This document shows positions 4,244-44,050 of a stretch of 64,000 nt of DNA, piece after piece. Where the stretch lies: IMG/VR virus record IMGVR_UViG_2563366974_000010; one strand, 5' to 3'. The position numbers and the translations under genes are program-made. The stretch comes from a virus (lineage: Duplodnaviria > Heunggongvirae > Uroviricota > Caudoviricetes). Each line of letters opens with the position of its first letter. Position 1 is the first letter of the stretch. The notes under the pieces are model-generated. The model saw only the letters and a list, made by a program, of their open reading frames with translations, did not search any database and was not told where the DNA came from.

Positions 4244-4332
4244 TGGGAAGTATCAAAAACGGCGAAAGCCAGTCTGCTCGAACAGAACTGGCCTTCAGAT
4301 GCAAATCGTGTGCACTCATTGCAGGAGGAATA

Positions 4333-15517: not shown

Positions 15518-15973
15518 ATGGCTGCACTAAAACCAGAGGTGAAAGCCGCCATCGTTCAAATGCTTGCGTGCTATGACACCCTGTCGATTGTGGTCGACTC
15601 CGTCCAAAAAGATTACGGGATAAAAGTCACCCCGCAGCAAGTCGAATCGCACGACCCGACTAAGGCCAGCGGGAAAGGGCTGGCGCAGAAATGGGTAGAA
15701 CTATTCAACGAAACCCGCAAGCGCTTCCAGACAGAAATCAGCGACATCCCGATCGCTAACAAAGCCTATCGTCTGCGCGCGCTCGACCGGATGATGACCA
15801 ACGCCGAGAAGATGCGAAACATGGCTCTTGCCGCATCGCTAATGGAGCAGGCGGCGAAAGAGGTTGGCGATGCGTACAGCAACAAACAGAAGGTCGAGCA
15901 CACCAGTCCGGACGGAAGCATGACGCCGAAGCCGACCATTATCCAGTTACTACCCGTTGAGCCTAAAGCATGA
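15518..15973 (+). CDS. Putative terminase small subunit
   Basis: Small gene immediately upstream of and overlapping terminase large subunit; by position only. Confidence 0.45.
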   Translation: MAALKPEVKAAIVQMLACYDTLSIVVDSVQKDYGIKVTPQQVESHDPTKASGKGLAQKWVELFNETRKRFQTEISDIPIANKAYRLRALDRMMTNAEKMRNMALAASLMEQAAKEVGDAYSNKQKVEHTSPDGSMTPKPTIIQLLPVEPKA

Positions 15974-42009: not shown

Positions 42010-42648
42010 ATGAAAAAGTTAACAGTGGCGGCTTTGGCAGTAGCAACTCTTCTCTCTGGCAGTGCCTTTGCACATGAAGCCGGCGAATTTTTTATGCGTG
42101 CAGGTTCTGCAACCGTACGTCCAACAGAAGGTGCTGGTGGTACGTTAGGAAGTTTGGGTGGATTCAGCGTGACCAATAACACTCAACTGGGCCTGACGTT
42201 TACTTATATGGCGACCGACAACATTGGTGTGGAATTACTGGCAGCAACGCCGTTCCGCCATAAAATCGGCACCCGGGCGACCGGCGATATTGCAACCGTT
42301 CATCATCTGCCGCCAACACTGATGGCGCAGTGGTATTTTGGTGATGCCAGCAGCAAATTCCGTCCTTACGTTGGTGCAGGTATTAACTACACCACCTTCT
42401 TTGATAATGGATTTAACGATCATGGCAAAGAGGCGGGGCTTTCCGATCTCAGTCTGAAAGACTCTTGGGGAGCTGCCGGGCAGGTGGGGGTTGATTATCT
42501 GATTAACCGTGACTGGTTGGTTAACATGTCAGTGTGGTACATGGATATCGATACCACGGCTAAGTACAAATCTGGTGTTACTACCGTAAAAGACTCGGTA
42601 CGACTGGATCCGTGGGTGTTTATGTTCTCCGCAGGATATCGTTTTTAA
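42010..42648 (+). CDS. ompW: Outer membrane protein OmpW
   Basis: Signal peptide MKKLTVAALAVATLLSGSAFA; C-terminal AGYRF beta-barrel signature. Confidence 0.85.
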   Translation: MKKLTVAALAVATLLSGSAFAHEAGEFFMRAGSATVRPTEGAGGTLGSLGGFSVTNNTQLGLTFTYMATDNIGVELLAATPFRHKIGTRATGDIATVHHLPPTLMAQWYFGDASSKFRPYVGAGINYTTFFDNGFNDHGKEAGLSDLSLKDSWGAAGQVGVDYLINRDWLVNMSVWYMDIDTTAKYKSGVTTVKDSVRLDPWVFMFSAGYRF

Positions 42649-42654
42649 TTTTCT

Positions 42655-42687
42655 CTGCAAAACCTCTGCAAAACCCCTCTGCAAAAC
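42655..42687 (+). repeat. Three direct copies of CTGCAAAAC between ompW stop and terminator hairpin
   Basis: Copies at 42655, 42666, 42679. Confidence 0.5.
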
Positions 42688-42711
42688 TGGTCATCAAATG
42701 ACCAGTTTTTT
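42687..42711 (+). terminator. ompW intrinsic terminator (also encodes last codons of integrase on opposite strand)
   Basis: CTGGTCAT-caa-ATGACCAG then T6. Confidence 0.6.
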
Positions 42712-43824
42712 CCATTCCTTACCGCGTGCGTCGTTGTAAATATCGGTCATTTTTTGATTCGAATGGCCCAGCAAAATTTTGGTATCAACCCCCTGCTCTC
42801 TGAACAATCGCTCTGATAAAGATCTCTGCTCATGGAAAGAGGGTGGGGTGCCATTAGCACGCCAGTTGTAATCCACAGAATCCCGGGCTTTTTTAAATGC
42901 AACGGTTAATGTTGCTGGCTTAACCATCCCGCCGCGCTTAGCTGTCCCTTTCGCGTGATGGTGGTGCAATAGCCACGGACTAAGAACGCAATCGCGGCAG
43001 GATGACACCACATCATCTAGGGTGAGATTTAATTTATCGCAACGCAGAGCCAGAGGGATGGCAATCCGGGTTCCTGTTTTTTGCTGTTCGACATGAAGAT
43101 AACCATCCCGGATATCCGAAAATTGCATTTTGCAAATATCTGAAAGGCGCTGGCCTGTCATCAGTGCCAGCAGCATACCGCGCTGTAAAAAGTAACCATC
43201 CTTTTCCGCTGCGTTATAAATCATCATCCACTCATCAAAAGTCAGTCGCTGTCTTGATATCCGCACCTGCGGTTTTTTTGCCGATTCTGCAGGGTTAAAG
43301 CCTGGCGGGACATCGCCCGTTTGCTGAGCTTCCCGGAAAACATCGATCAGTACTTTCCTGAAAATTTGTCCCATTCTGTTATGTCCTCTGGCCTTGTACT
43401 CTTCCAGTACTGATACCACATCTTTTACGGTTATGGCATCTAACGGTCTGGTGCCAAAACGTTCATCAAATACCCTGAGAGGGGCCGCTTTCTGTTTCAG
43501 CGTGTTGAGTTTGATCTCGCCGTTTTCATATCTTTCCTGTTGAATTTTTCTGTAATTATTCAGAAAAATGGTAACGGTTGATGAACCGCCGGTGTCACTA
43601 ATAATTTTCTCCTGCAGACTGAGCATTTGTTCCATTTGCTGCCGGGCAAGACGGCTGTTCGCTTCTGCTGCAATAGTTTCTGCCAGTTTCTGGTCAATAC
43701 TGCCGAGACCGTGATTTTTGCCTGTTATGGGATGCCTGTAACGCCAGTAAACTTTGTTATTTCTTTTGTCAAAATACGGAGATAATCCCGGAACATCGGT
43801 TTTATATTTTCGCGGGCGCGCCAT
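42694..43824 (-). CDS. int: Tyrosine recombinase / phage integrase
   Basis: 376 aa; C-terminal catalytic-domain character (HELRHT-like region, LLGHSNQKMTDIY); adjacent to att-like junction. Confidence 0.85.
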   Translation of the reverse strand: MARPRKYKTDVPGLSPYFDKRNNKVYWRYRHPITGKNHGLGSIDQKLAETIAAEANSRLARQQMEQMLSLQEKIISDTGGSSTVTIFLNNYRKIQQERYENGEIKLNTLKQKAAPLRVFDERFGTRPLDAITVKDVVSVLEEYKARGHNRMGQIFRKVLIDVFREAQQTGDVPPGFNPAESAKKPQVRISRQRLTFDEWMMIYNAAEKDGYFLQRGMLLALMTGQRLSDICKMQFSDIRDGYLHVEQQKTGTRIAIPLALRCDKLNLTLDDVVSSCRDCVLSPWLLHHHHAKGTAKRGGMVKPATLTVAFKKARDSVDYNWRANGTPPSFHEQRSLSERLFREQGVDTKILLGHSNQKMTDIYNDARGKEWKKLVI

Positions 43825-44050
43825 CTTCCAGTATCCTCTTCAAAGCAGGGTGATCTGTGGCGATCACCTCCGGCTTGTTTACCATTCCGACAAAGCGAGC
43901 TTGCGGATCCACTCGCCAGCGTCTTCCAACTTTTTTGGGGAGAGGAAATATCATTCCGGCTTTAGCGTATTTACTTAACGTACTCGGAGTAGGGACCGGT
44001 TCACTGAATTCCTCCTTTGCCCACTCAGTGAGCAGAATAAGTCTTGCCAT
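43802..44050 (-). CDS. xis: Excisionase-like protein
   Basis: 82-aa protein overlapping integrase start. Confidence 0.55.
   Translation of the reverse strand: MARLILLTEWAKEEFSEPVPTPSTLSKYAKAGMIFPLPKKVGRRWRVDPQARFVGMVNKPEVIATDHPALKRILEDGAPAKI

What the first reader, a model, noticed from the sequence alone, without database searches (positions are those of the whole stretch)
42649..42711. ompW-integrase junction: triple CTGCAAAAC repeat and integrase C-terminus encoded by the ompW terminator
Three direct copies of CTGCAAAAC lie between the ompW stop and its terminator hairpin, and the last six integrase codons are read from the terminator on the opposite strand. This is typical of integration into a gene 3' end with reconstitution of the terminator. 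The repeats could be att-core or arm-type sites, or scars of serial integration.
Basis: partly seen in the sequence, partly recalled or inferred. Interest (0 to 1): 0.45.

Follow-up and report, generated by a model that had tools for sequence, protein, structure and literature searches.

The report
Phage integrase arm sites beside ompW
The three CTGCAAAAC repeats are part of a lambda-like prophage's attachment site and are most likely where the integrase's N-terminal domain binds; this is an ordinary, well-conserved feature of a prophage family (PPompW) whose integration into ompW is already published.

Summary
CTCTGCAAAAC occurs three times (42653-63, 42664-74, 42677-87) between the ompW stop and a hairpin plus T6 (42687-42711). 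The hairpin region also encodes the last five int codons and the stop on the other strand.

The window is E. coli ATCC 11775 carrying a PPompW prophage (Nakamura 2021). The crossover is not at the repeats. It lies about 100 bp upstream, inside the ompW coding sequence (identity block 42530-42557). Everything 3' of that block is phage DNA: a surrogate ompW tail, the stop, the repeats and the hairpin. The native ompW tail, with a different terminator, sits at attR. Prophage-free strains lack the repeats, and an unintegrated phage record has them in an unbroken attP.

The repeats are best explained as the P'1-P'3 arm-type sites of a lambda-type integrase:
- A fourth box sits at -133 in 29 of 30 non-ompW left flanks examined (23 distinct sequences among the 29, median 47% identity), next to a conserved IHF consensus.
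- The same module (boxes 11 and 13 bp apart) accompanies related integrases that target icd, ushA-like and other genes.
- e14 has a TTATCAAAA version with the same spacing.
- The layout mirrors lambda.

The att-core, scar and native-DNA readings are rejected. Direct binding by Int has not been tested.

The parts
42010..42648 (+). Chimeric ompW CDS (212 aa). It is bacterial up to the crossover block and phage-encoded after it.
   Evidence: ORF. It is identical to PDB OmpW 2MHL/2F1T except for residues AKYKSGVTTVKD versus ANYKLGGAQQHD.
42530..42557 (+). Identity block shared by attB, attP, attL and attR (CAGTGTGGTACATGGATATCGATACCAC); it contains the crossover. The exchange is probably at its left edge (CAGTGTG, 42530-36; inferred).
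   Evidence: Three-way alignment of attL, attB and attR. Unbroken attP in CP025907.1. Secondary insertion in rlmC of E. albertii, with the junction at ...CCAGT|GTGGTAC.
42558..42648 (+). Phage-borne surrogate 3' end of ompW. It has a hypervariable loop-coding part (42558-42603), then the conserved last beta-strand and the stop.
   Evidence: The native equivalent lies at attR as a 126-bp ompW pseudogene next to yciE. GenBank LC567822 annotates 42530-42650 as the 121-bp duplication.
42655..42663 (+). Box 1 (CTGCAAAAC), proposed arm-type Int site P'1, at +120 from the first base of the 23-bp core.
   Evidence: Invariant in 8 diverged attL junctions and in 43 viral contigs.
42666..42674 (+). Box 2 (CTGCAAAAC), proposed P'2, at +131.
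   Evidence: Same calls as box 1. The only variant seen is CAGCAAAAC (L009, L024, L034).
42679..42687 (+). Box 3 (CTGCAAAAC), proposed P'3, at +144. It ends 6 nt before the int stop codon, and its last base starts the hairpin stem.
42687..42711 (+). Phage-supplied intrinsic terminator for the chimeric ompW (8-bp stem, 3-nt loop, T6), with an A-tract on the other side. It overlaps the last five int codons and the stop.
   Evidence: Fold energies. One compensatory C.G to T.A change, plus G.U wobbles that keep pairing only on the + strand. No such hairpin follows box 3 in the non-ompW groups.
42694..43824 (-). int: a lambda-type heterobivalent tyrosine integrase (376 aa).
   Evidence: PF09003 Arm-DNA-bind_1 at E = 7e-22 (residues 2-71) and PF00589. 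Aligns end to end with lambda Int 5J0N/1Z1B at E about 1e-55. 50% identical to e14 IntE.
43802..44050 (-). xis (excisionase). It overlaps the int start by 23 nt, the same overlap as in lambda.
   Evidence: PF07825 at E = 1e-7. Lambda coordinates.

Best explanation
The three CTGCAAAAC boxes are the P'-arm arm-type binding sites (equivalent to lambda P'1-P'3) of the attachment site of a lambda-like PPompW prophage.

Proposed mechanism. The integrase has two DNA-binding specificities. Its core-binding and catalytic domains act at the crossover block inside ompW (42530-57). Its N-terminal arm domain binds the three boxes on the int-proximal arm and a fourth box 133 bp to the other side of the core. 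An IHF bend next to that fourth box helps fold the roughly 290-bp attP into a recombination complex. After integration the three boxes are left at attL, which is this junction.

Why the boxes sit where they do. The phage crosses over inside the ompW reading frame, so its P' arm also carries a substitute ompW tail, a stop codon and its own terminator hairpin. That places the boxes in the ompW 3' untranslated region and makes the terminator overlap the end of int.

What is shown: the boxes are phage attP DNA, they are conserved, and they travel with this integrase family. What is inferred: Int binding and IHF bending.
For: (1) The boxes are phage DNA and not host DNA. K-12 and the other prophage-free genomes sampled end their match at 42650 and have a different sequence and terminator there. 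CP025907.1 has an unbroken P arm, core, ompW-like tail, three boxes, hairpin and int. Nakamura 2021 confirmed excision and attP of PPompW by PCR.

(2) Int carries the lambda arm-binding domain.

(3) There is a fourth exact box in the same orientation at -133 (twice at -132) from the core. It is present in 29 of the 30 left flanks of at least 220 nt that are not ompW. Those 29, plus the O145 arm that duplicates one of them, make 23 distinct sequences with median pairwise identity 47%. Nothing is conserved distal to the box. The only other invariant P-arm element is AAATCA-N5-TTAA, an exact IHF consensus at -106.

(4) The boxes are invariant while their 2-nt and 4-nt spacers and their flanks vary. 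This holds in Kluyvera, Raoultella, Enterobacter and E. coli variants with Int only 65-69% identical.

(5) When a 1.5-kb cargo is inserted (L007, L011), the boxes stay with the att site and not with int.

(6) The same module (boxes 11 and 13 bp apart) precedes related int genes whose upstream gene is icd, a ushA-like 5'-nucleotidase gene, or something else. Among these integrases the arm domain is the best conserved part: 72% mean identity against 50-58% for the other domains.

(7) e14 of K-12 has three TTATCAAAA boxes with the same 11/13 spacing after its icd surrogate, and one box in its P arm.

(8) The geometry matches lambda as measured here. Lambda P'1-3 are spaced 10 and 11 bp apart with P'3 overlapping the int stop, and P1 is in the same orientation at -141 from the core centre. 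Here the P-arm box is at about -144.
Against: No binding or mutational data exist for these boxes in any source I could search.

No inverted, P2-like box and no IHF consensus between the core and the P' boxes was found. The P' boxes sit at +120 to +152, about 55 bp further out than in lambda, so how that arm is bent is unexplained.

A strict match between box sequence and protein is not upheld. The icd-type attP L049 has CTGCAAAAC boxes on the P' arm but an e14-type TTATCAAAAC at the P1-equivalent position.

One contig (L056) has the core and P' arm joined to a left flank that is neither ompW nor a recognisable P arm, and it has no box.
Confidence: 0.82

Rival explanations
1. The repeats are the att core, meaning the place where phage and chromosome exchange strands.
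For: They lie at a prophage-chromosome boundary as it would be judged from gene annotation alone.
Against: attL, attR, attB and attP share only the block 42530-57 inside ompW. The repeats are absent from attB and from the bacterial side of attR, and they lie about 100 bp inside phage DNA. The loop-coding segment between the core and the repeats is phage-type at attL and native-type at attR, which puts the exchange upstream of it.
Confidence: 0.01
2. The repeats are scars of serial integration and excision, or native chromosomal sequence.
For: None beyond the fact that they are tandem repeats.
Against: The copy number (3) and the spacing (11, 13) are identical in unintegrated attP, in four genera, and next to integrases that use other target genes. 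They are absent from the prophage-free genomes sampled.
Confidence: 0.01
3. The boxes act mainly at the RNA level, either as part of the ompW 3' UTR (for example a 3'-UTR-derived small RNA or a stability element ending at the hairpin) or as a sib-like processing signal downstream of int.
For: In the ompW group the boxes are transcribed upstream of a functional-looking terminator. The - strand RNA can fold the boxes into a second hairpin.
Against: A fourth box lies 253 bp away, across the core, in the non-coding P arm and at a fixed distance from the core. In the icd and ushA groups the boxes lie downstream of the target gene's own terminator. There is no Rfam match. The box sequence is conserved, not the pairing.
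Confidence: 0.06
4. The boxes are DNA sites for another protein (Xis, a host nucleoid protein or a phage regulator) and not for Int.
For: Lambda Xis also binds three tandem direct repeats (from memory). No binding data exist here.
Against: In lambda the Xis sites are in the P arm near the core. Here the triple cluster is on the int-proximal P' arm and a single copy is at the far edge of the P arm, which is the lambda pattern for Int arm sites. The boxes always occur with one integrase family that has a conserved arm domain.
Confidence: 0.08

Closest known systems
Bacteriophage lambda attP, arm-type sites P1 and P'1-P'3
   Same: Int has a PF09003 arm domain and aligns end to end with lambda Int. 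There are three direct boxes about one helical turn apart on the int-proximal arm, abutting the int stop. There is one same-orientation box about 140 bp to the other side of the core, with an IHF consensus next to it. xis overlaps int by 23 nt.
   Different: The box sequence is CTGCAAAAC, against lambda's (C/A)AGTCACTAT. The P' boxes lie about 55 bp further from the core because the arm also encodes a gene tail. No P2-like inverted box and no H'-like IHF site were detected. The target is inside a protein-coding gene and not intergenic.
e14 / phage 21 integration into icd
   Same: Integration is inside the 3' part of a protein-coding gene, with a phage-borne surrogate 3' end and a remnant left at attR. 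IntE is 50% identical. e14 has three boxes with the same 11/13 spacing and a P-arm box. Some icd-targeting phages use the same CTGCAAAAC boxes.
   Different: The target gene and core differ. The e14 box is TTATCAAAA. In e14 and the icd group the surrogate gene's terminator precedes the boxes, whereas here it follows them and overlaps int. e14 also has cargo (lit, ymfD, ymfE) between att and int. I could not read the 1990s phage 21/e14 papers, so I do not know whether their arm sites were described.
PPompW prophages of STEC O145:H28 (Nakamura et al. 2021, PMC8112680; GenBank LC567818-41)
   Same: The region from the att block through int and into xis (42540-43900) is 99.7% identical. ompW integration is the same, with the same 121-bp duplication (window 42530-42650).
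   Different: The host strain (ATCC 11775) and the P-arm variant differ. The paper defines att as the 121-bp duplication and does not mention arm-type sites (0 occurrences). The boxes lie just outside its annotated repeat_region.
Lambda versus HK022: shared arm-type sites with different core specificity (from memory, not tested here)
   Same: One arm-box module serves integrases that have diverged in target gene (ompW, icd, ushA-like and others), with the arm domain more conserved than the core-binding domain.
   Different: Here at least four target contexts share the module. The comparison with HK022 itself was not run.

Membership tests
Lambda-type (heterobivalent) tyrosine integrase attP | The integrase has an N-terminal arm-DNA-binding domain in addition to the core-binding and catalytic domains. 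| tested here: met
   PF09003 at E = 7e-22 (residues 2-71), PF00589 at E = 1e-16, and PF22022 at E = 4e-5 (24.3 bits, just below Pfam's 27-bit cutoff). Full-length alignment to lambda Int structures at E about 1e-55.
Lambda-type (heterobivalent) tyrosine integrase attP | A repeated arm-type motif, unrelated to the core sequence, is present on both arms of attP. | tested here: met
   CTGCAAAAC is at -133 and at +120, +131 and +144. The P-arm box is invariant across 23 distinct sequences from 29 of 30 non-ompW left flanks.
Lambda-type (heterobivalent) tyrosine integrase attP | A cluster of three direct arm sites about one helical turn apart on the int-proximal (P') arm. | tested here: met
   Spacing is 11 and 13 bp here, against 10 and 11 bp in lambda. 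The cluster ends 6 nt before the int stop, whereas lambda P'3 overlaps the stop.
Lambda-type (heterobivalent) tyrosine integrase attP | Accessory bending-protein (IHF) sites between the arm sites and the core. | tested here: inconclusive
   There is one exact, conserved WATCARNNNNTTR at -106 in the P arm (0.06 expected by shuffling). None was found in the P' arm.
Lambda-type (heterobivalent) tyrosine integrase attP | The Int N-domain physically binds the boxes, and the boxes are required for recombination. | not testable with these tools
   This needs EMSA or footprinting and att-site mutagenesis.
Lambda-type (heterobivalent) tyrosine integrase attP | An adjacent excisionase (recombination directionality factor). 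| tested here: met
   PF07825 at E = 1e-7. The ORF overlaps the int start by 23 nt.
Integration into the 3' part of a protein gene with a phage-borne surrogate end (e14 / phage 21-icd type) | The crossover is inside the CDS, the phage copy of the 3' end completes the ORF at attL, and the displaced native end remains at attR. | tested here: met
   Alignment of attL, attB and attR. A 126-bp ompW remnant lies next to yciE. The 212-aa OmpW is intact. The surrogate is present in unbroken attP.
PPompW prophage group (Nakamura 2021) | int is more than 90% identical to the O145:H28 PPompW int, and the element is inserted in ompW. | tested here: met
   99.7% DNA identity over 42540-43900 to 11 PPompW records. 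The criteria are quoted.
Rho-independent terminator | A GC-containing stem-loop followed by a U-tract, with pairing maintained in evolution. | tested here: met
   -17 kcal/mol with z = -4.6 for the 70-nt stretch 42646-42715, in which the hairpin is the dominant element. One compensatory change and + strand-only wobble changes. A simple consensus scan missed it, probably because the stem extends into the A and T tracts. Termination itself was not tested.
att core / overlap region (as a reading of the repeats) | The sequence is shared by attB, attP, attL and attR. | tested here: not met
   The repeats are absent from attB (K-12) and from the bacterial side of attR.

The most novel reading that the evidence does not exclude
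Integration itself acts as a lysogenic conversion of a surface receptor. By crossing over inside ompW, the phage replaces only the last connection of the OmpW barrel, between beta-strands 7 and 8 (extracellular loop 4 by the usual 8-strand topology). The native ANYKLGGAQQHD becomes AKYKSGVTTVKD. Phage-borne tails are hypervariable exactly there, including a +5-residue version, while the rest of the tail is invariant. OmpW is the colicin S4 receptor and a phage receptor in Enterobacter, Serratia and Vibrio. The swap could therefore protect the roughly one third of complete E. coli genomes that carry this junction from OmpW-dependent colicins or phages, possibly including the phage's own relatives.
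Probability: 0.15. Interest if true: 0.6.

Novelty: new member of a known kind. Interest (0 to 1): 0.3.

Why it matters
The result gives a sequence-level map of a very common E. coli attachment site, present in 1715 of 5426 complete genomes. The map places the crossover block, the arm boxes, an IHF site and the outer limits of attP (-133 to +152). This goes beyond the '121-bp att' in the literature.

It also shows that one portable arm-site module (CTGCAAAAC three times, with a fourth box on the other arm) serves a family of integrases that have been retargeted to ompW, icd, ushA-like and other genes.

Practical uses are annotating prophage ends, designing attP/attB tools from this family, and predicting which integrases might cross-react at their arms. 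It does not change how lambda-type recombination is understood.

Tried and rejected
(a) Covariation test with L007 and L011. They first appeared to lack the boxes despite an arm domain identical to L008. The boxes were in fact 1.5 kb away, beyond a cargo insertion.

(b) A P2-like site. GTTAAAAAC at about -97 looked promising in E. coli arms but is not conserved in Enterobacter-type arms. Only its TTAA survives, as part of the IHF consensus.

(c) An H'-like IHF site in the P' arm: none found.

(d) Locating the crossover from SNPs in ATCC 11775 attL and attR (G/C at 42534, C/T at 42549). This was ambiguous, because the G/C difference is a synonymous polymorphism that is also seen in other attL junctions. 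The rlmC secondary site is the better clue.

(e) Literature search for the motif strings returned only unrelated primer sequences. The Wang et al. 1997 phage 21/e14 paper is not held. Papers on OmpW as a receptor say nothing about its loops.

(f) Rfam: no match.

(g) The simple terminator scan did not list the hairpin.

(h) Two coordinate slips of my own were corrected. The core is at 42535-57, not 42553-75, which invalidated the ompW-identity column (redone). The ompW start is 42010, not 42011 (one search failed, worked).

(i) The invariant 26-bp block at 42604-29 was considered as a phage-specific protein site. This was rejected because native ompW tails carry the same block.

Full report
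**1. The observation.** Between the ompW stop (TAA, 42646-48) and a hairpin there are three exact copies of CTGCAAAAC, starting at 42655, 42666 and 42679. The unit is really the 11-mer CTCTGCAAAAC (42653-63, 42664-74, 42677-87). Tandem Repeats Finder reports the array. By my arithmetic about 0.5 exact 9-mers are expected in the whole window, so three within 33 bp is not chance. The only other exact 11-mer (35296) is inside a chromosomal ORF.

The hairpin is CTGGTCAT-caa-ATGACCAG (42687-42705) followed by T6. The 70-nt stretch around it folds at -17 kcal/mol with z = -4.6. The int ORF (42694-43824, minus strand) ends at the stem-loop boundary of the hairpin. Its last five sense codons (KKLVI) are read from the 3' stem arm and the T-tract.

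**2. Where the window comes from and what is already known.** The window is a 100% match to E. coli ATCC 11775. The region from the att block through int and into xis is 99.7% identical to the 'PPompW' prophages of STEC O145:H28. Nakamura et al. [quoted passage not shown] GenBank annotates that duplication, which corresponds to window 42530-42650 and ends four bases before the first CTGCAAAAC box (two before the 11-mer). The paper never mentions arm-type sites. The junction is common: 1715 of 5426 complete E. coli genomes cover the phage side of my query.

**3. Where the crossover is.** In ATCC 11775 the other end of the ~47-kb prophage carries a 126-bp ompW remnant next to yciE. I aligned attL (the window), attR and the empty site of K-12. 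The three share only CAGTGTGGTACATGGATATCGATACCAC (42530-57), and that block is inside the ompW reading frame.

Downstream of the block, attL carries a diverged ompW-like tail, whereas attR and K-12 carry the native tail. After the stop codon K-12 has a different sequence and a different terminator (GACCCCGTAATATACGGGGTC). In the spread sample, 26 genomes with only ompW annotated under the match stop matching at 42650.

The record CP025907.1 (Escherichia phage 204576) contains the unbroken attP: P arm, core, ompW-like tail, three boxes, hairpin and int. So everything from about 42558 rightwards, including the repeats and 'the ompW terminator', is phage DNA.

A secondary insertion into rlmC in E. 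albertii has its junction at ...CCAGT|GTGGTAC. That points to strand exchange at the left edge of the block (CAGTGTG, 42530-36), which is flanked in attP by the inverted pair TACC/GGTA. This placement is inference.

**4. What the repeats are.** Int has the lambda arm-DNA-binding domain (PF09003, E = 7e-22) as well as the catalytic domain, and aligns end to end with lambda Int structures. xis overlaps int by 23 nt, as in lambda. Five lines of comparative evidence point to arm-type sites.

(i) *A fourth box on the other arm.* An exact CTGCAAAAC in the same orientation lies 133 bp left of the core in attP and attR. Of the 30 left flanks of at least 220 nt that are not ompW, 29 carry it at -133 (twice at -132), including one attP whose P' boxes are displaced by a 15-bp insertion. 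Together with an O145 arm that duplicates one of them, these give 23 distinct sequences with median pairwise identity 47%. Nothing is conserved distal to the box. The only other invariant P-arm element is AAATCA-N5-TTAA, an exact IHF consensus at -106 (0.06 expected by shuffling).

(ii) *Conservation across genera.* In Kluyvera, Raoultella and Enterobacter relatives with Int 65-69% identical, the three boxes and their 11/13 spacing are kept. The spacers, the last six ompW codons and the loop-coding segment all vary.

(iii) *The boxes stay with att.* In L007 and L011 a 1.5-kb two-gene cargo separates int from the att site, and the boxes remain next to the att site.

(iv) *A shared module.* A pattern scan of viral contigs found the same module in 43 contigs. 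A lambda-type int ends 6-24 nt after box 3 in nearly all contigs where enough downstream sequence is held; the exceptions are cargo insertions and interrupted int genes. The upstream context is ompW, icd, a ushA-like 5'-nucleotidase gene, or something else. Among these integrases the arm domain is the most conserved part (72% against 50-58%). That is what is expected if arm specificity is shared while core specificity has diverged.

(v) *e14.* e14 of K-12, whose IntE is 50% identical, has three TTATCAAAA boxes with the same 11/13 spacing after its icd surrogate, and one box in its P arm.

*Comparison with lambda, measured here.* Lambda P'1-P'3 are spaced 10 and 11 bp apart, and P'3 overlaps the int stop. 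P1 is in the same orientation at -141 from the core centre. The box here is at about -144 from the core centre.

**5. Weak points.**
- Nobody has shown binding.
- I found no P2-like inverted box and no IHF consensus on the long P' arm.
- The icd-type attP L049 mixes CTGCAAAAC (P' arm) with TTATCAAAAC (P arm). The constant part is therefore CAAAAC, and strict box-to-protein covariation does not hold.
- One contig (L056) joins the core to an unrecognised left flank with no box.

**6. The hairpin.** It is a phage-supplied terminator for the chimeric ompW. All ompW-group variants keep an 8-bp stem (7 bp by MFE in L011), a short loop of 3-5 nt and a T-run. L014 has a compensatory C.G to T.A change. 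Four variants have G.U wobbles that pair only on the ompW-sense strand. Integrases at other targets have no hairpin after box 3, because their surrogate gene carries its own terminator upstream of the boxes. The A-tract supplied by box 3 and the four Ts on the minus strand allow, but do not prove, a second role in terminating int. There is no Rfam match.

**7. Verdict.** The feature is the P' arm of a lambda-type attP belonging to a published prophage family. The specific arm boxes, the P-arm box with its IHF site, the limits of attP, and the sharing of the module across integrases with different targets do not appear in the literature I could search. All of these are nevertheless what the lambda paradigm predicts. 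I rate it a new member of a known kind, of modest interest.

The more unusual by-product is that integration rewrites only the beta7-beta8 connection of OmpW, a segment that is hypervariable among phage-borne tails. OmpW is a documented colicin and phage receptor.

Noticed in passing
window 42558-42603 (and L012, L014, L018, L031, L008, L009): Integration changes only one stretch of OmpW: AKYKSGVTTVKD in place of the native ANYKLGGAQQHD. This is the connection between the last two beta-strands (loop 4 by inference). Phage-borne tails are hypervariable exactly there, including a +5-residue version, while native E. coli tails are uniform. OmpW is a colicin S4 receptor and a phage receptor.
   Followed up: partly
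window 42604-42629: The 26-bp block CTGGATCCGTGGGTGTTTATGTTCTC is nearly invariant, synonymous positions included (native E. coli tails differ only at the first codon, CTC for CTG, and single substitutions occur in L018 and L031). This holds in both phage-borne and native ompW tails from E. coli and from Enterobacter-, Citrobacter- and Kluyvera-like hosts. The next six codons vary freely at synonymous sites. No explanation was found, and there is no IHF consensus in the block.
   Followed up: partly
L006 (E. albertii NBRC 107761, NZ_BBMY01000048.1), about 4290-4330: The same int, P' arm and core are joined on the left to rlmC instead of ompW, with the junction at ...CAACTGCCAGT|GTGGTACATGG. 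This is a secondary-site insertion that disrupts rlmC and fuses it in frame to the OmpW-like tail.
   Followed up: partly
L007 4126-5612 and L011 4125-5613: In Kluyvera georgiana and Enterobacter bugandensis a 1.5-kb cargo lies between the att-proximal hairpin and int. It has two ORFs (303 aa and 96 aa) with no Pfam match. In L011 the int 3' end is disrupted.
   Followed up: partly
L015 (K-12 e14), icd/e14 junction around 15700-15800 and attR region around 900-1000: e14 has three TTATCAAAA boxes spaced 11 and 13 bp apart after the icd-surrogate terminator, and GGTTATCAAAAC in its P arm. These are candidate e14 arm-type sites. I could not establish whether the older literature describes them.
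   Followed up: partly
L049 (IMGVR_UViG_2703719239_000003), -361 from P'1: This icd-type attP has CTGCAAAAC boxes on the P' arm but an e14-type TTATCAAAAC at the P1-equivalent position. Its Int has the most divergent arm domain of the set. It may be an arm mosaic, or its arm specificity may be relaxed.
   Followed up: no
L062, L063, L072 (attR junctions in viral contigs): The native ompW remnant is broken at ...GGATATCG|GGTAATGACTCC, a few bases before its stop. This suggests another element inserted at the extreme 3' end of ompW.
   Followed up: no
L056 (IMGVR_UViG_643886067_000001): The core and P' arm are joined to a left flank that is neither ompW nor a recognisable P arm, and it lacks the -133 box. 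This may be another secondary site or a rearrangement.
   Followed up: no
L010 and L038: The same triple-box module and int lie next to a 79-aa ORF (ending ...DALEIGE) that has its own terminator and no Pfam match. The target gene or attB for this subgroup is unidentified.
   Followed up: no
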